From an uncultured Pseudomonadota bacterium (GTDB lineage Bacteria > Pseudomonadota > Alphaproteobacteria > Rs-D84), in contig CASFOK010000011.1 in assembly GCA_949296475.1 (NCBI GenBank), positions 2,300 to 66,299 on the forward strand: 64,000 nucleotides of DNA, in the 5' to 3' direction. Below are positions 8,456-12,745 of this stretch, in pieces (position 1 is the stretch's first letter; every line of letters starts with the position of its first letter). A model generated the notes under the pieces. That model was not told where the DNA came from. It saw only the letters and a list, made by a program, of their open reading frames with translations, and did not search any database. Both the position numbers and the translations under genes were made by a program.

Positions 8456-8482
8456 TAAAAAACTGCCTGCCGGCAGTTTTTT
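8456..8482. terminator. Bidirectional hairpin terminator between plsC and the nuclease gene
   Basis: aaaaaaCTGCCtgccGGCAGtttttt, with an A-run and a T-run on either side. Confidence 0.65.
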
Positions 8483-8891
8483 AATTACACCAACTGTCAC
8501 GTTTTCCACCGTTATATGAACGTCCCAGTTTTTCTTGCAACAAAATATTACCGACATCACGACCATCTTGCAAAATAACGTCGGCATCTATTCTGCCCAA
8601 ATATTTATCGTCTTTTATGTTTTGTAATTCCACCACAGAACCAATTGATAATAATTCTGCCAACCTATCTTTTGCAAGATTTGCCATTCTTATTTCTTTG
8701 TCGCAACTACCTTTTAACTCGGGCGTATCAACATTTTTCAATCGCACACGAACGGAAATTTTTGTATCATCTTGTAATAAAACAAAGGCTGCAAAAGTAT
8801 CGCCGTCAAAAATATAATCAACCACTGCAGGTACAGCACTTGCCGCATTTATAAATAAACAAGACAATAAACAAACATAAAAATATTTCAT
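8481..8891 (-). CDS. Secreted thermonuclease (staphylococcal nuclease, SNase-like)
   Basis: Signal peptide MKYFYVCLLSCLFINAASA. SNase pattern DGDTF...VRLKNVDTPE...A..RL...V.L....DKYLGRIDADV. Confidence 0.7.
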   Translation of the reverse strand: MKYFYVCLLSCLFINAASAVPAVVDYIFDGDTFAAFVLLQDDTKISVRVRLKNVDTPELKGSCDKEIRMANLAKDRLAELLSIGSVVELQNIKDDKYLGRIDADVILQDGRDVGNILLQEKLGRSYNGGKRDSWCN

Positions 8892-8892
8892 T

Positions 8893-10212
8893 TTATGGTA
8901 ATTTTGGCGACCAAGTCGGTTCCACCCCGTTTATATCATCTGGCAATTCTATGTCATAAACATGCTGACCTGTTATATCAACACTGCGAATATGACTTAT
9001 ACGTTCTATGCTGTCCAGCGCTCTTTCTGTTTCATAGTAAACCAAACGACGCGAGCCCGGTGCCCAAGAAGGTGCCTCCATATACCAGCCACCGGCTAAT
9101 ATTTTTTCATTTCTGCCGCGTGGGTCCATGATGCCAATATAAAAAGTATCATCTGCCATTTTCGTAAACGCGATGAATTGCCCGTCTGGCGACCAAGCGG
9201 GCGTAGCATATCGCCCTGCTCCATAAGTTAAACGTTCTACTTTACCTGATTCCAAATCTAAAACATATATTTGTTGATTGCCGCTGCGATCTGAATTAAA
9301 CGCTAACTTTTTCCCGTCTGGCGAATAAGACGGACTGGTATTCAAAGAATTTCCGAAAGTCAACTGACGTAACGCTTTGGTTTCTATATCATATTCATAT
9401 ATATGTGTAATGCCATTTTTTACCAAAGATAAAGCAATTTTTGTACCGTCTGGTGAAAATCGCGGTGCAAAATTCATACCGCCGAACTGACCCAACCTAC
9501 GTTGTTCACCGGTATCTAAATCCAAAGTCCAAACCATCGGGTCATCATCACGGAACGACAAGAACACTATCGTTTGCATATTAGGCGAAAAGTGTGGCGA
9601 CATAACAAAGGTCTTTTTGTCCGACAAATAACGCATACCATAACCGTCTTGGTCCATAATTGCCATACGTTTTGTACGATTATGAACGGGGCCGGTTTCA
9701 GCAATAAACACAATTTGAGTATCAAAATAGCCAATTTCACCGGTCAACCTTTCATATATAGAATCAGCCATAATATGCGCCAAACGACGCGCCGATTTTT
9801 TAGAAGCAACTAAACTTTGTGCTTCTATTTGTTCCTTACCGTTTACATCCCAGACATAAAATTCCAAGTTATACTTTCCGTCAGATTCTGCAGATATTTT
9901 ACCTTGAACCAAAACCTGTGCCTTTACAGCAGACCATAAACTAAAATCAGGCAACTTTCCCATTTCAACGAATTCCGGCATTGCATCATGCGACACTATA
10001 CGGAATAACCCAGTTGACTTCAAGTCAGCCTCTACGACATTACGTATCATTTTCGCGTCCCTAGAAGAAACATCGCCAACAGTTTCAAACTTTTGGACAG
10101 CAACAGAAATCGGTTCCATTGCACCCGCGATAATATCAACCTTGATTTCCGCATGCGCAGGTACAACTGATATCAACATTAATACAAATAACGATAAAAA
10201 CTTTTTTAACAT
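8893..10212 (-). CDS. tolB: Tol-Pal system beta-propeller protein TolB
   Basis: N-terminal TolB domain followed by repeated WD-like SPDG..IAF/SPDGKKLAF/SPDGTKIAL blades. Start set at ATG 10212 (MLKKFLSLF... signal peptide) behind GGGAAAGGAA; an upstream ATG at 10236 is possible. Confidence 0.9.
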   Translation of the reverse strand: MLKKFLSLFVLMLISVVPAHAEIKVDIIAGAMEPISVAVQKFETVGDVSSRDAKMIRNVVEADLKSTGLFRIVSHDAMPEFVEMGKLPDFSLWSAVKAQVLVQGKISAESDGKYNLEFYVWDVNGKEQIEAQSLVASKKSARRLAHIMADSIYERLTGEIGYFDTQIVFIAETGPVHNRTKRMAIMDQDGYGMRYLSDKKTFVMSPHFSPNMQTIVFLSFRDDDPMVWTLDLDTGEQRRLGQFGGMNFAPRFSPDGTKIALSLVKNGITHIYEYDIETKALRQLTFGNSLNTSPSYSPDGKKLAFNSDRSGNQQIYVLDLESGKVERLTYGAGRYATPAWSPDGQFIAFTKMADDTFYIGIMDPRGRNEKILAGGWYMEAPSWAPGSRRLVYYETERALDSIERISHIRSVDITGQHVYDIELPDDINGVEPTWSPKLP

Positions 10213-10400
10213 ATATATTCCTTTCCCAGAAAACAATTCGCTGTAATTTTATATGCTTATTTATAAAAAAGCAAGACAGCAAAAGACCTTTTTAGAAAAT
10301 AAAAATCCTATCAGACAAAAAAACATCAACAAAAAACAACAATACACCCGCCTTTACAAAAGCCATCACAACAGTCATTACAAACATAATTACAAATGTA

Positions 10401-10428
10401 TTGACAAGCGCCAATACAATGTTATAGT
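10401..10428 (+). promoter_or_regulatory. Sigma70-type promoter candidate for the RHH/DinD-like gene pair, with flanking inverted repeat
   Basis: TTGACA (10401-10406), 16-nt spacer, TATAGT (10423-10428). ATACAAT (10414-10420) and ATTGTAT (10448-10454) form an inverted repeat. The palindrome TACAAATGTA sits at 10391-10400. Confidence 0.5.
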
Positions 10429-10473
10429 CACTTGTAAAGACTGTGGTATTGTATAAAGTATAGGAGATTGTGT

Positions 10474-10701
10474 ATGCCAAATGTAATGCAACAGTTATTC
10501 ATTATGAACATAGAATCTTTATTAAAAGAATATGCTGCCTATCGCACATTTAACAAATCTGATTGCGTTATAAACATGCGCATACCACGTCCAGTACTGG
10601 AAAGCATCAAACAACTGGCAGAAAAACAACACGTACCCTATCAGTCTTTGATATCTTCTGTATTATTTTCACTTGCAAATATAGAAGAAAACAAATCTTA
10701 A
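10474..10701 (+). CDS. Small ribbon-helix-helix (CopG/BrnA-antitoxin-like) protein
   Basis: AGGAG at 10462-10466, 7 nt before ATG 10474. The segment INMRIPRPVLESIKQLAEKQHVPYQSLISSVL matches the RHH/BrnA pattern (beta strand, helix, then ..PYQSLI..). Confidence 0.5.
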   Translation: MPNVMQQLFIMNIESLLKEYAAYRTFNKSDCVINMRIPRPVLESIKQLAEKQHVPYQSLISSVLFSLANIEENKS

Positions 10702-10718
10702 AAAATAAGGATGCAGAT

Positions 10719-11666
10719 ATGCCACTTCCAAAAACAAGTAAAGTATTCAAATCACTAAGCAACAATATTCACCATTCCGAAAAGATAACTATTCAAAAAA
10801 ATATTTTTGACACGAACAGTACAATAAACGAACATTATGGGGACTATTGGAAATTTTCCGATTTGTATAATCTATTTGGTCCGGACATAATGGGAAACCC
10901 AAAACTTATAAACGAAACCGTCAAAAAAATAATAACAAACGACGTTTTTATAAGTCTACCAACACAAAACAAAGATAAAATATTACGTCCGAATACTTTT
11001 GATGAATTTTACAACAACCATATAAAATTAATTTATTCAGATTATTCTATTAAACAAAAAAATAAAAACGAAATTACTGATGCCAAACTTAGTCGCTTTA
11101 CATGTTGGAAAATATTAAAACAATATCCCAACCTGATTTTTTCACAACTGTACTTTATGCATCCAAATATATCAGAACAAGAATTACAAAAACTGGCGAC
11201 CAGTTTTTCAAGGGTGTATTTACGACACTATGTATCAAAAGCCGAACGAATTTTATGTGGCATAGCATACAAAAATAATATAGATTTATGTAAATTCAAC
11301 CACGCAATCACACAATTATTCTTTTATAACAACGACACAGACACGTTAAAAAGCATACATAATATTAGGTTGCGTGACAAAGACCCGATTGCAAATTACA
11401 TGGGATGCTATTCTTTGTCTGCATTTAATACAGGGCTTAGCAAATCTATTCAATACTTCAATGCAACTAATCAACAAATGCCAATTGATAAATTCCTAGA
11501 TCAACTATTACACGAATTGTATTATCAAAGAACCAACATGTATAAAAAGAGAGGAATTTATCCAGAACAAGACATAAAACCAATCTCGGAACAACAAATT
11601 CATGCGGAATTAAAAACCAAAGAAAAAGAATTTATAAACAAATACGCATTTGAAAAAATTAGATAA
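10719..11666 (+). CDS. Hypothetical protein, possibly DinD/Bro-N-like (315 aa)
   Basis: Start trimmed to ATG 10719 (MPLPKTSK...). By-eye resemblance to the DNA-damage-inducible protein D layout: LSRFTCWKILKQ resembles LSRYACYLVVQN, and ANYMGCYSLSAFN resembles DHMGSTELAANLF. Asn/Lys/Ile-rich. Confidence 0.35.
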   Translation: MPLPKTSKVFKSLSNNIHHSEKITIQKNIFDTNSTINEHYGDYWKFSDLYNLFGPDIMGNPKLINETVKKIITNDVFISLPTQNKDKILRPNTFDEFYNNHIKLIYSDYSIKQKNKNEITDAKLSRFTCWKILKQYPNLIFSQLYFMHPNISEQELQKLATSFSRVYLRHYVSKAERILCGIAYKNNIDLCKFNHAITQLFFYNNDTDTLKSIHNIRLRDKDPIANYMGCYSLSAFNTGLSKSIQYFNATNQQMPIDKFLDQLLHELYYQRTNMYKKRGIYPEQDIKPISEQQIHAELKTKEKEFINKYAFEKIR

Positions 11667-11675
11667 AGAACAAAA

Positions 11676-11706
11676 TAAAAAAAGACGGCAACGCCGTCTT
11701 TTTTTA
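11676..11706. terminator. Bidirectional terminator
   Basis: aaaaaaaGACGGCaacGCCGTCttttttt lies between convergent genes. Confidence 0.7.
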
Positions 11707-12081
11707 AATTAATCCAAAATTACTAAACTGGTTCACACAACCTATCATATTCATACCGGTAGAACTTATTAAGAATTTTAATACAAATCCTATTCCCAGC
11801 AACAAAGAAAAACCAACTATTAAACCCACACCTTTTTTCTTAATATCGTCAGATTTGACGTCGCCAGCAGCAATAAATCCCCATGCCCAACCGGCGATTA
11901 TAAAAGCCGCCCCTATAAACGCAAGTGTACTTAATAAATTAAAAACACCCGACATTTTTACAACTAAATCACATAATGCTGGATTATTTTGCGAGGCAGG
12001 TGCTGCGAAAGACTGACCTAACCCCGTTATAAACATAGCACCGGCAAAACCGATTTTTTTCAATACGTTTTTTAATTTCAT
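11704..12081 (-). CDS. Small membrane protein with TrbC/VirB2-type pilin architecture
   Basis: Signal peptide ...GLGQSFA|APAS, then two hydrophobic helices separated by a short charged loop (…AFIIAGWAWGFIAAGDVKSDDIKKKGVGLIVGFSLLLGIGFVL…). The layout is comparable to Agrobacterium VirB2. Confidence 0.4.
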   Translation of the reverse strand: MKLKNVLKKIGFAGAMFITGLGQSFAAPASQNNPALCDLVVKMSGVFNLLSTLAFIGAAFIIAGWAWGFIAAGDVKSDDIKKKGVGLIVGFSLLLGIGFVLKFLISSTGMNMIGCVNQFSNFGLI

Positions 12082-12140
12082 ATAAAACCCCTTTCTTTTG
12101 TAATCATTTTATCACAAAAAAGTCGGCTCTTCAACATTAT

Positions 12141-12173
12141 AAAAACAAAAAGCGTTCTTTATCAAGAACGCTT
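12141..12173 (-). terminator. Rho-independent terminator of the 12196-12585 gene
   Basis: Stems aagcgttctt and aagaacgctt with loop tatc, followed on the minus strand by a T-rich run. Confidence 0.6.
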
Positions 12174-12195
12174 TGAACTTTGTAAAAACCACCTG

Positions 12196-12585
12196 TTACA
12201 TTGCGGAAACGATAACATATCTACGTTTCAAAACTGGTTGATTGCAGGTATTACAACCGCAAGTACGTTTTTCCACCCTTGCTGTACAAGCCGAGCAAGA
12301 CCAACCATCGTTCACTGGTGATAAAATTTGTCTTTCTTGACGTGAAGCGCGACCAAACGTATCGCTTGCGTACAAATCTTCACAGCGTGTGTTTTTATAA
12401 ACTATTTTCTTATTATTATCCATACCATCTATATAGTCAGAAAAATTGCGGCCACGTTCACCAACGTAATAAATACAATCACTGCCATCTTGGGTGTATC
12501 TTACACCACCTTTGTAATAATCATAATAACCGCCGCAACCCGCCAACGCAATTAATGCAAATACAGAAATAAATAAATTTTTCAT
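12196..12585 (-). CDS. Cys-rich lipoprotein, function unknown
   Basis: Lipobox LAGC. Eight further Cys residues, including CSAC and CGCNTC clusters. No recognisable domain. Confidence 0.55.
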   Translation of the reverse strand: MKNLFISVFALIALAGCGGYYDYYKGGVRYTQDGSDCIYYVGERGRNFSDYIDGMDNNKKIVYKNTRCEDLYASDTFGRASRQERQILSPVNDGWSCSACTARVEKRTCGCNTCNQPVLKRRYVIVSAM

Positions 12586-12745
12586 AACGCATCCCTTTAT
12601 TAAATTCTTTACATCTCTTACCTGCCCCCGATTCGTGATTTAATTGTTGCACAAAAATACCCGTTGTCAAGCAAGACAAAAATACATTTATATAATCCAC
12701 AGATAGTATTTATGTTATAATAAAACTATCTAAAAGGACTTTATT

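What the first reader, a model, noticed from the sequence alone, without database searches (positions are those of the whole stretch)
10250..12585. Accessory islet between tolB and fba: RHH protein, DinD/Bro-like protein, VirB2-like pilin and a Cys-rich lipoprotein
Four genes with no housekeeping role interrupt conserved core genes. A 75-aa RHH (BrnA/CopG-like) gene has a strong TTGACA-16-TATAGT promoter bracketed by inverted repeats, which look like an autoregulatory operator. It is followed 17 nt later by a 315-aa Asn/Lys-rich protein that by eye resembles DinD/Bro-N proteins. Two small exported proteins converge on this pair. A small RHH followed by a larger effector is the grammar of toxin-antitoxin or abortive-infection modules, but the large partner matches no toxin family I recognise.
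Basis: partly seen in the sequence, partly recalled or inferred. Interest (0 to 1): 0.6.

Follow-up and report, generated by a model that had tools for sequence, protein, structure and literature searches.

The report
Core RHH repressor with hypervariable DinD gene
This is not a mobile islet: a small DNA-binding (RHH) protein next to tolB is a fixed core gene of a whole family of small-genome gut alphaproteobacteria, and only the DinD-family gene behind it is hypervariable, exchanged between lineages and repeatedly lost, as conflict or defence genes usually are.

Summary
The four ORFs, the TTGACA-16-TATAGT promoter, the inverted repeats and the 17-nt spacing are all present as described. The "accessory islet" reading fails for three of the four genes.

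- **RHH (Pfam CopG_antitoxin).** It is single-copy in every genus and family genome that matched, at 74-100% identity apart from two outliers. Its dN/dS is 0-0.05, and it is more conserved than TolB. Its promoter holds the genome's only 12-nt-phased ACA x7 array, and that array is conserved family-wide.
- **VirB2-like gene and lipoprotein.** Both are syntenic across the genus.
- **315-aa gene.** It is a true but very divergent DinD / PADLOC PDC-S13 homologue (hhalign probability 99.9%). It is always an intact ORF 2-45 nt behind the RHH (one locus has a tandem pair). It is present in 50 of 74 species and was lost at least 6 times. Genomes with 97-98% identical TolB can differ down to 34% identity in this gene, and its synonymous divergence is 3-5 times that of the flanks.

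Best reading: an autoregulated core RHH operon carries a dispensable, recombining DinD-type conflict gene. A classic toxin-antitoxin pair is unlikely, because the RHH persists unchanged without the DinD-like gene, has no toxin-binding tail, and the genome has no BrnT. The function itself is untested.

The parts
8893..10215 (-). tolB, the conserved divergent neighbour (context, not part of the module)
   Evidence: 78-99% identical in 80 relatives; TolB_N/PD40 Pfam on orthologues
10344..10418 (+). Array of seven ACA triplets spaced exactly 12 nt apart (TTACAA/TCACAA-type sites), ending in the -35 box and the spacer; putative RHH operator array
   Evidence: unique in the 882-kb genome; none at periods 10, 11, 13, 14; ACA in phase in 52-76 of 76 relatives at seven positions while the spacer letters vary; kept in other genera
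10401..10428 (+). Sigma-70-type promoter TTGACA-16-TATAGT with extended TG
   Evidence: 11 of 12 matches; nearly invariant in 75 relatives
10432..10466 (+). Conserved 5' leader blocks TTGTAAAGAC ... GTATTG ... GTATAGGAG (inverted copies of the upstream half-sites, then the RBS)
   Evidence: no notable RNA fold (z -0.22); no Rfam match
10474..10701 (+). 75-aa ribbon-helix-helix protein of the BrnA/CopG-antitoxin family; family-wide single-copy core gene
10719..11666 (+). 315-aa divergent DinD / PDC-S13 family protein; hypervariable, dispensable second cistron
11676..11706 (.). 14-bp-stem hairpin flanked by A and T runs; a terminator-like site between the two convergent units, probably working in both directions
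   Evidence: sub-threshold sRNA-like hits here are terminator-driven
11704..12081 (-). 125-aa exported two-helix protein, candidate TrbC/VirB2-type pilin; syntenic in the genus with hypervariable ends
12136..12165 (-). Promoter-like site TTGATA-18-TATAAT upstream of the pilin-like gene
   Evidence: 11 of 12 matches
12149..12174 (-). Terminator-like hairpin downstream of the lipoprotein gene
12196..12585 (-). 129-aa lipoprotein (LAGC lipobox) with a conserved N-terminal domain, two invariant Cys, a variable Cys-rich middle and a basic C-terminus
12643..12670 (-). Promoter-like site TTGACA-16-AACAAT upstream of the lipoprotein gene
   Evidence: 10 of 12 matches

Best explanation
The locus is a chromosomal, vertically inherited operon headed by a core ribbon-helix-helix repressor. 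The RHH most likely binds the 12-bp-phased TTACAA-type sites and their inverted copies, which cover its own -35 box, -10 box and leader, and so sets transcription of itself and of whatever lies behind it (inferred from sequence, not shown). In the Enterousia clade the gene behind it is a DinD-family (PADLOC PDC-S13 type) protein. It is co-transcribed from the RHH promoter, has its own RBS, and ends at the hairpin at 11676-11706. This gene is functional: the ORF is always intact and dN/dS is 0.05-0.39. It is also dispensable and hypervariable: alleles are swapped by homologous recombination between lineages, and the gene has been deleted cleanly at least six times. I read it as a conflict or defence-type DNA-binding protein acting on foreign or recombining DNA. 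This follows from what is known of its relatives: E. coli DinD acts on RecA filaments, and true DinD genes sit inside type I restriction-modification operons. I do not read it as the toxin of a classic toxin-antitoxin pair. The convergent VirB2-like and lipoprotein genes are separate, conserved envelope genes with their own promoters. The VirB2-like gene is probably the pilin of a scattered type IV secretion system and is also under diversifying pressure.
For: RHH is core. It was matched in 108 genus genomes and in 14 genomes of nine other genera, one copy each, and none of the listed genomes without a match belonged to the genus or family. It is 80-85% identical where TolB is only 64-74%. Its dN/dS is 0-0.05. 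The operator and promoter block is conserved genus- and family-wide, and the array is unique in the genome. The leader has no notable RNA structure and no Rfam match. DinD homology: NF008573 2.3e-7, PDC-S13 2.6e-12, phrog_8036 3.9e-12; hhalign against true DinD gives probability 99.9%, E 2e-31, over 256 columns spanning residues 28-307; PDC-S13 is the true DinD family (1e-111). All 49 orthologues are intact, 289-330 aa; 48 start within 45 nt of the RHH stop (two overlap it), and one (L073) follows a second DinD-like ORF. The gene is present in 50 species and absent in 24, with at least 6 changes on the TolB tree. Absent loci leave only 34-171 nt, two leave about 480-500 nt. Allele replacement: L074 against L075 has TolB 98%, RHH 97%, lipoprotein 96% but DinD-like 34%. 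DinD-like dS is 0.99-1.54 against 0.19-0.61 in the flanks. Sliding-window identity drops from about 95% to 40-55% from the 3' end of the RHH gene through the pilin gene, with mosaic blocks inside. Defence context of the family: true DinD lies between hsdS and hsdR in three contigs, and a DinD-like module is part of a PADLOC type I specificity model. The pilin and lipoprotein genes have their own promoter- and terminator-like sites.
Against: RHH binding to the array is inferred from repeat geometry alone. PDC-S13 is only a candidate defence family, and I found no paper that validates it. The only biochemistry for the family is RecA-filament inhibition by E. coli DinD (Uranga et al. 2011, cited in PMC4849656). 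The high-confidence AF2 model (pLDDT 90.5) matches nothing in PDB or BFVD, so no catalytic mechanism can be read from it. Hypervariability plus loss is also what a gene drifting towards loss in a shrinking genome would show, although dN/dS below 0.2 and elevated dS argue against pure decay. The slot behind the RHH holds only DinD-like genes within the genus, which could mean a specific functional pairing after all.
Confidence: 0.5

Rival explanations
1. Classic type II toxin-antitoxin or abortive-infection pair: the RHH is the antitoxin that both represses the operon and neutralises a toxic DinD-like protein by direct binding.
For: A small RHH of the CopG_antitoxin Pfam family, annotated 'BrnA antitoxin family protein' in public records. 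A larger gene follows 17 nt downstream in one operon. Operator-like repeats sit in the promoter, and that array occurs nowhere else in the genome, consistent with a purely autoregulatory repressor. Within the genus only DinD-like genes occupy the slot. The conserved N-terminal 30 aa of the RHH could contact the conserved DinD motifs.
Against: The RHH is kept at the same conservation in 24 species and in nine genera without the DinD-like gene. No RHH residue or C-terminal tail tracks DinD presence; the tail after helix 2 is only about 5-6 aa and identical in both groups. The RHH is 97-99% identical across DinD alleles that are 34% identical. The BrnA equivalog score is far below its cut-off (23.5 against 60 bits), and no BrnT is in the genome. 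DinD is not a known toxin family.
Confidence: 0.15
2. The DinD-like gene is an ordinary, non-conflict modulator of RecA-dependent recombination or repair, as proposed for E. coli DinD. It evolves fast and is lost simply because constraint is weak in these shrinking genomes.
For: Full-length homology to DinD. RecA is present. Genomes are 0.7-1.1 Mb, so gene loss is common. The gene is AT-rich and N/K-rich, as expected under AT-biased drift.
Against: dN/dS is 0.05-0.19 in most pairs, so selection maintains the gene. Synonymous divergence is 3-5 times that of the flanks, with mosaic blocks, which means imported alleles rather than a faster clock. Very old alleles persist among near-identical backgrounds, which suggests balancing or diversifying selection. 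No LexA was found (tblastn with the E. coli protein only), so the SOS logic of dinD is probably absent.
Confidence: 0.2
3. The DinD-like gene works with the neighbouring VirB2-like pilin and the type IV secretion system, for example by handling transferred single-stranded DNA or RecA during transfer in the manner of plasmid PsiB. The two genes would then form one variable cassette.
For: The two genes lie tail to tail, and both fall in the low-identity tract in some close pairs (L074/L075). VirB3/VirB4 and VirB10 are present elsewhere in the genome.
Against: The two genes vary independently: in L052/L060 the pilin is 90-98% identical and the DinD-like gene 66-93%; in DinD-less L040/L042 the pilin is still variable. 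The pilin gene stays where the DinD-like gene is lost and occurs in other genera without it. They are separate transcription units.
Confidence: 0.07
4. A horizontally acquired accessory islet of four genes inserted between tolB and fba.
For: Lower GC than the flanks (29-33% against about 40%); no housekeeping annotation for the genes.
Against: Same gene order in nearly all of 80 related species. No integrase, tRNA or direct-repeat boundaries were seen. The RHH is older than the genus. No paralogues or second copies exist in the genome.
Confidence: 0.03

Closest known systems
E. coli DinD (DNA damage-inducible protein D, NCBIfam NF008573), which is the same family as PADLOC candidate PDC-S13
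   Same: Homologous over nearly the whole length (hhalign probability 99.9%, residues 28-307 against DinD 11-273). Shared motifs: EYW..DL, HF, D..L(S/T)RYAC(W/Y), AQ.YF, ER...R, D(Y/F)(M/L)G, PE. Similar size (about 280-315 aa). The family is linked to defence loci (type I R-M operons).
   Different: Scores far below the equivalog cut-off (30.5 against 242 bits). No Pfam Bro-N hit, and the N-terminal domain carries a variable insert of about 30-45 aa (residues 62-93). Driven by an RHH promoter, not by LexA (none found). Fixed at one chromosomal site, hypervariable, and confined to one bacterial clade.
BrnA antitoxin of the BrnT/BrnA type II toxin-antitoxin system (Pfam PF12441 CopG_antitoxin)
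   Same: Same Pfam family above the gathering score. Same layout: an N-terminal helical segment followed by a ribbon-helix-helix with the PYQ.L motif. Operator-like repeats in its own promoter.
   Different: No BrnT (PF04365) next to it or anywhere in the genome. Below the NCBIfam BrnA cut-off. Single-copy, vertically inherited and more conserved than TolB across a whole family, which is the opposite of the patchy, mobile distribution typical of toxin-antitoxin genes. The gene order is reversed: in BrnTA the toxin gene comes first (my knowledge of that system).
RHH repressors that coat arrays of short repeats (omega of pSM19035, ParG, CopG, Arc/Mnt); from my own knowledge of these systems
   Same: A small RHH dimer with a promoter holding multiple short direct and inverted sub-sites at a fixed period, overlapping the -35 and -10 boxes.
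   Different: The period here is 12 bp, with seven ACA-centred sites. The setting is chromosomal and core, not a plasmid or phage. Binding has not been tested.
TrbC/VirB2 pilins of type IV secretion systems (Pfam PF04956)
   Same: About 125 aa with a signal peptide and two long hydrophobic helices joined by a short charged loop. 12 of 49 orthologues give TrbC matches, best E 3.3e-6. VirB3, VirB4 and VirB10 are scattered elsewhere in the genome.
   Different: The window's own protein has no TrbC hit at E <= 1. Genome-wide hits in the genus stay under the cut-off (at most 19 bits against 27.9). Two invariant Cys (C37, C115). Not next to any other virB gene.

Membership tests
DinD family (NCBIfam NF008573; PADLOC PDC-S13) | Score above the curated equivalog cut-off (242 bits) | tested here: not met
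   30.5 bits, E 2.3e-7, residues 99-305 only
DinD family (NCBIfam NF008573; PADLOC PDC-S13) | Full-length homology to bona fide DinD proteins | tested here: met
   hhalign of 50 orthologues against 15 DinD-type relatives: probability 99.9%, E 2.1e-31, 256 columns. Six of the 15 were scanned against NF008573: three score above the cut-off and three between 183 and 207 bits. PDC-S13 HMM 2.6e-12. PDC-S13 is true DinD.
DinD family (NCBIfam NF008573; PADLOC PDC-S13) | N-terminal Bro-N domain (Pfam PF02498), as in true DinD | tested here: inconclusive
   None of the 50 orthologues hits Pfam Bro-N. The EYWLFSDLYNLFG motif does align to the Bro-N region of DinD in hhalign. The AF2 model shows a beta-rich N-terminal domain.
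DinD family (NCBIfam NF008573; PADLOC PDC-S13) | SOS (LexA) control, which gives dinD its name | tested here: not met
   No LexA found by tblastn in the genome. The gene sits in the RHH operon 17 nt after the RHH stop.
DinD family (NCBIfam NF008573; PADLOC PDC-S13) | Inhibition of RecA filaments (E. coli DinD biochemistry) | not testable with these tools
   Known only from Uranga et al. 2011, as cited in PMC4849656
Type II toxin-antitoxin system (RHH antitoxin + toxin) | Small two-gene operon with the antitoxin gene tightly linked to the toxin gene | tested here: met
   Gap of 17 nt here; 48 of 49 orthologues start within 45 nt of the RHH stop, and two of those overlap it
Type II toxin-antitoxin system (RHH antitoxin + toxin) | The two genes are gained and lost together, and the antitoxin is dispensable without the toxin | tested here: not met
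   RHH is kept in all matched genus and family genomes, in 24 species lacking the DinD-like gene and in nine genera without it, at unchanged conservation
Type II toxin-antitoxin system (RHH antitoxin + toxin) | Antitoxin has a toxin-binding extension that co-evolves with the toxin | tested here: not met
   The C-terminal tail is 5-6 aa and the same in DinD+ and DinD- genomes. RHH is 97-99% identical across DinD alleles 34% identical. The N-terminal 30 aa are nearly invariant.
Type II toxin-antitoxin system (RHH antitoxin + toxin) | Toxicity of the large partner and rescue by the small one | not testable with these tools
   Needs expression assays
BrnT/BrnA system | BrnA-type RHH (PF12441 / NF047399) | tested here: inconclusive
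   PF12441 38.2 bits, above the cut-off of 28; NF047399 23.5 bits, below the cut-off of 60
BrnT/BrnA system | Adjacent BrnT toxin (PF04365) | tested here: not met
   No match at E <= 1 anywhere in the genome
TrbC/VirB2 pilin (PF04956) | Pfam score above the gathering cut-off (27.9 bits) | tested here: not met
   Own protein: no hit. Genus genomes: at most 19.1 bits. 12 of 49 orthologues match at E <= 1, best 3.3e-6.
TrbC/VirB2 pilin (PF04956) | Signal peptide plus a two-helix hydrophobic hairpin of about 100-125 aa | tested here: met
   AF2 helices 34-72 and 77-105 (pLDDT 70.7); Foldseek returned nothing
TrbC/VirB2 pilin (PF04956) | Other type IV secretion components in the same genome | tested here: met
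   VirB3+VirB4 at C4:57074-59786; VirB10/TrbI on C1; no better VirB2 candidate
Mobile genomic islet | Presence/absence of the whole block among relatives; integrase, tRNA or repeat boundaries | tested here: not met
   The block is syntenic in nearly all 80 relatives. Only the DinD-like gene is variable. No paralogues.

The most novel reading that the evidence does not exclude
The RHH-DinD-like operon is a new kind of chromosomally fixed, diversifying immunity locus. A universally conserved repressor, which sits on a unique 7 x 12-bp operator array and is probably needed by the cell for another reason, holds a DinD-family effector in check and releases it on infection or DNA stress. The effector then acts on recombining or foreign DNA. 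Alleles are kept diverse by frequency-dependent selection and are swapped by recombination between conserved flanks. If so, this would be the first functional assignment of the DinD / PDC-S13 family as an immune effector.
Probability: 0.25. Interest if true: 0.7.

Novelty: new variant of a known kind. Interest (0 to 1): 0.45.

Why it matters
DinD is a widespread family that is barely understood: there is one biochemical paper on RecA-filament inhibition and an unvalidated "phage defence candidate" label. This locus offers a natural experiment. One clade of uncultured gut alphaproteobacteria with genomes under 1 Mb keeps a DinD-type gene at one fixed site under an RHH promoter. There are dozens of very divergent but intact alleles, clean knock-outs in sister species, and clear signs of allele exchange. 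That pattern is typical of genes in an arms race and gives testable allele sets. Separately, a toxin-antitoxin-type "antitoxin" protein that has become a strictly conserved core gene, more conserved than TolB and with a unique phased operator, warns against annotating every CopG/BrnA-like gene as an antitoxin. It also raises the question of what it controls in these minimal genomes. Nothing here is categorically new, and no function is shown.

Tried and rejected
- **Pfam.** No family for the DinD-like protein, in the window's copy or in any of 50 orthologues.
- **PDB by sequence profile.** Nothing below E 0.29.
- **Pilin model.** Foldseek returned zero matches, and the PDB profile search gave nothing.
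- **Word-based homologue search for the DinD-like protein.** It found only 8 relatives, so the exhaustive profile search was needed.
- **Paralogues in the genome.** None for any of the four genes.
- **BrnT in the genome.** None.
- **RNA element in the leader.** No Rfam match, and the fold is not better than shuffles. I therefore rejected a riboswitch or sRNA explanation for the conserved leader.
- **Literature.** No paper mentions PDC-S13, and none links DinD with defence islands. The Uranga 2011 paper is not held.
- **Generic insertion hot spot behind the RHH.** Rejected, because within the genus only DinD-like genes occupy the slot, although other genera have other genes there.
- **MAG assembly artefacts as the source of variability.** Rejected, because all ORFs are intact and dN/dS is well below 1.
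Full report
**What is there.** The window lies on contig C11 of an 882-kb genome that is 98% complete. Its TolB finds 80 related loci, almost all from uncultured gut Alphaproteobacteria, many of them named Candidatus Enterousia.
- a 75-aa RHH protein at 10474-10701 (+);
- a 315-aa protein at 10719-11666 (+), starting 17 nt after the RHH stop;
- a 125-aa exported two-helix protein at 11704-12081 (-);
- a 129-aa lipoprotein at 12196-12585 (-).

The promoter TTGACA-16-TATAGT (10401-10428) and the bracketing inverted repeats are real. A terminator-like hairpin (11676-11706) separates the two convergent units. The pilin-like and lipoprotein genes each have their own promoter- and terminator-like sites.

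**Family assignments.**
- The RHH passes Pfam CopG_antitoxin (38.2 bits against a cut-off of 28) but not the NCBIfam BrnA equivalog (23.5 against 60).
- The 315-aa protein has no Pfam hit. It gives sub-threshold matches to DinD (NF008573, 2.3e-7), to PADLOC PDC-S13 (2.6e-12) and to phrog_8036 (3.9e-12).
- I aligned 50 orthologues (A1) and searched all 1.84 billion representative proteins with the profile. It found 770 hits at E < 1e-3. The distant ones tested are DinD-type: all ten match NF008573 (five above the cut-off), and five pass Pfam Bro-N, with three weaker hits.
- A profile-profile comparison of A1 with 15 DinD-type relatives taken from those distant hits gives probability 99.9% and E 2e-31 over 256 columns. 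It covers residues 28-307 and includes the Bro-N-like EYW..DL motif.
- The PDC-S13 model is the true DinD family (1e-111). DinD also matches the N-terminal 270 positions of a PADLOC type I specificity-subunit model. One true DinD lies between hsdS and hsdR in three contigs.

The AF2 model is confident (pLDDT 90.5, pTM 0.85) but matches no solved or viral structure, so no catalytic mechanism can be read from it.

**Core or accessory?** tblastn of the locus genes on the 80 related loci shows the RHH at the same place, divergent from tolB, in all 75 relatives whose contig reaches it. Its identity there is 76-100%. The pilin-like and lipoprotein genes are syntenic in nearly all relatives (39-68% and 41-97%). 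Only the DinD-like gene is variable: it is 97% identical in the same species, 27-45% elsewhere, and absent from 24 species.

A search of 151 genomes of the order finds the RHH once in each of 108 genus genomes and in 14 genomes of nine other genera of the family. Identity is 74-100%, with outliers at 55% and 45%. In the other families there is only one weak hit. In other genera the RHH is 80-85% identical while TolB is only 64-74%.

The promoter block ...TACAnnTGTATTGACAAnnGnnAATACAATGnTATAGTC..TTGTAAAGAC....GTATTG......GTATAGGAG is nearly invariant in the genus and recognisable in the other genera. Upstream of it, ACA triplets recur every 12 nt. There are seven in the window (10344-10418). 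This is the only such run in the genome, and periods 10, 11, 13 and 14 give none. The phase is kept in 52-76 of 76 relatives while the spacer letters vary. The leader has no RNA-family match and no unusual fold, so the conserved blocks are best read as protein-binding DNA.

**Evolution of the DinD-like gene.**
- All 49 orthologues are intact ORFs of 289-330 aa; 48 start within 45 nt of the RHH stop (two overlap it by 4-5 nt), and the exception, L073, has a second DinD-like ORF in between.
- On a TolB tree, presence (50) and absence (24) need at least six changes.
- DinD-less loci leave only 34-171 nt between the RHH and the next gene. Two leave about 480-500 nt.
- A profile HMM finds no DinD-like gene next to the RHH in 13 loci of other genera, and there the downstream gene differs from genus to genus.
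- Deeper-branching relatives (TolB 75-77% identical) with very divergent DinD-like proteins (profile E 1e-47 to 1e-22) still show tolB <-> RHH -> DinD-like. A slightly more distant hit is an unlinked Bro-N protein.
- In close pairs the gene is discordant. L074 against L075, L066 and L071 has TolB 96-98%, RHH 97-99% and lipoprotein 93-96%, but DinD-like 34%.
- dN/dS is 0.05-0.39, so selection is purifying. dS is 0.99-1.54 against 0.19-0.61 in the flanks.
- Sliding-window identity falls from about 95% to 40-55% beginning in the 3' end of the RHH gene. It stays low through the DinD-like gene and the two ends of the pilin gene, and recovers at the lipoprotein gene. L075 against L066 shows mosaic blocks inside the gene.

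This is allele import by recombination between conserved flanks, not just a fast clock. The pilin gene varies independently of the DinD-like gene (L052/L060 and L040/L042).

**Why not a classic toxin-antitoxin pair?**
- The RHH keeps dN/dS at 0-0.05 with or without the DinD-like gene.
- No RHH position distinguishes DinD+ from DinD- genomes.
- The tail after helix 2 is only 5-6 residues, and the same tails occur in both groups.
- There is no BrnT in the genome.
- The RHH predates the DinD-like gene.

What remains in favour of a specific pairing is the operon structure, the apparently self-only operator, and the fact that only DinD-like genes occupy the slot within the genus.

**Most likely mechanism.** Shown: operon anatomy, conservation, homology, recombination and loss. 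Inferred: the RHH coats the phased sites and represses its own promoter, and the DinD-like gene is co-transcribed and therefore under RHH control. Also inferred: the DinD-like protein is a DNA-associated conflict or defence-type factor. The basis for this last point is the family's position in R-M loci, its PDC-S13 label and the RecA-filament activity of E. coli DinD (Uranga 2011, as cited in PMC4849656). RecA is present, and no LexA was found (tblastn with E. coli LexA), so SOS control probably does not apply.

**The other two genes.**
- The 125-aa protein has the VirB2/TrbC layout. 12 of 49 orthologues give TrbC matches (best 3.3e-6). The window's own copy and genome-wide scans stay below the cut-off. 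VirB3/VirB4 and VirB10 are on other contigs, so a scattered type IV secretion system with this gene as its pilin is plausible but unproven.
- The lipoprotein has a conserved N-terminal domain with two invariant Cys and a variable Cys-rich middle. It matches no family.

**Verdict.** The finding is a new variant of known kinds, namely a DinD/PDC-S13 gene under a domesticated, core BrnA-like RHH. It is of moderate interest, mainly as a tractable entry point to DinD function and as an example of an antitoxin-family protein turned core gene.

Noticed in passing
L041, L051, L065 (public contigs CAVGNU010000018.1, JAMPCO010000043.1, CAZJGX010000020.1): Contigs filed under 'Bacteroides fragilis', 'Prevotella sp.' and 'Muribaculaceae' MAGs carry the Enterousia tolB (L041 and L051 also the adjacent RHH) with 81% TolB identity. 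They look like mis-binned contigs in public MAGs.
   Followed up: no
G000 C4:57074-59786 and C1:32402-33022; window 11704-12081: Type IV secretion genes are scattered over at least three contigs (VirB3+VirB4, VirB10/TrbI, candidate VirB2), as in the Rickettsiales rvh system (my knowledge). No Pfam-level VirB2 exists anywhere in the genome.
   Followed up: partly
window 8481-8891 and 8893-10215; all related loci: tolB is followed directly by a secreted SNase-type nuclease gene instead of pal in nearly every relative whose contig extends past tolB. In one genus (L098) the order is RHH -> SNase -> tolB on one strand.
   Followed up: partly
L073:1411-3197 (Ca. Enterousia scatequi): Two ORFs (263 and 296 aa) lie in tandem behind the RHH; the 296-aa one is DinD-like by tblastn, the 263-aa one only by a motif seen by eye. 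It is the only locus with more than one gene in the slot.
   Followed up: no
L125-L127 (metagenome contigs with true DinD P0124): Bona fide DinD lies between hsdS and an HSDR_N/hsdR pair inside type I restriction-modification operons. A PADLOC 'Specificity_I' model also contains a DinD-like N-terminal module.
   Followed up: partly
G000 whole genome: RecA is present (C2:38511-39464), but no LexA was detected by tblastn with E. coli LexA. The SOS regulator may be missing from this reduced genome.
   Followed up: no
window 11704-12081 and orthologues: The pilin-like gene is itself a diversity hot spot: 73-74% protein identity between genomes with 98-99% identical TolB (L040 against L042 or L044). 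The variable parts are the mature N-terminus and the C-terminus, while the two helices and two Cys are invariant.
   Followed up: partly
L102 and L105 (genus g5), about 2000-3400 nt downstream of the RHH: A 587-612-aa secreted protein gene follows the RHH, and the next ORF contains a masked run of N in both loci.
   Followed up: no
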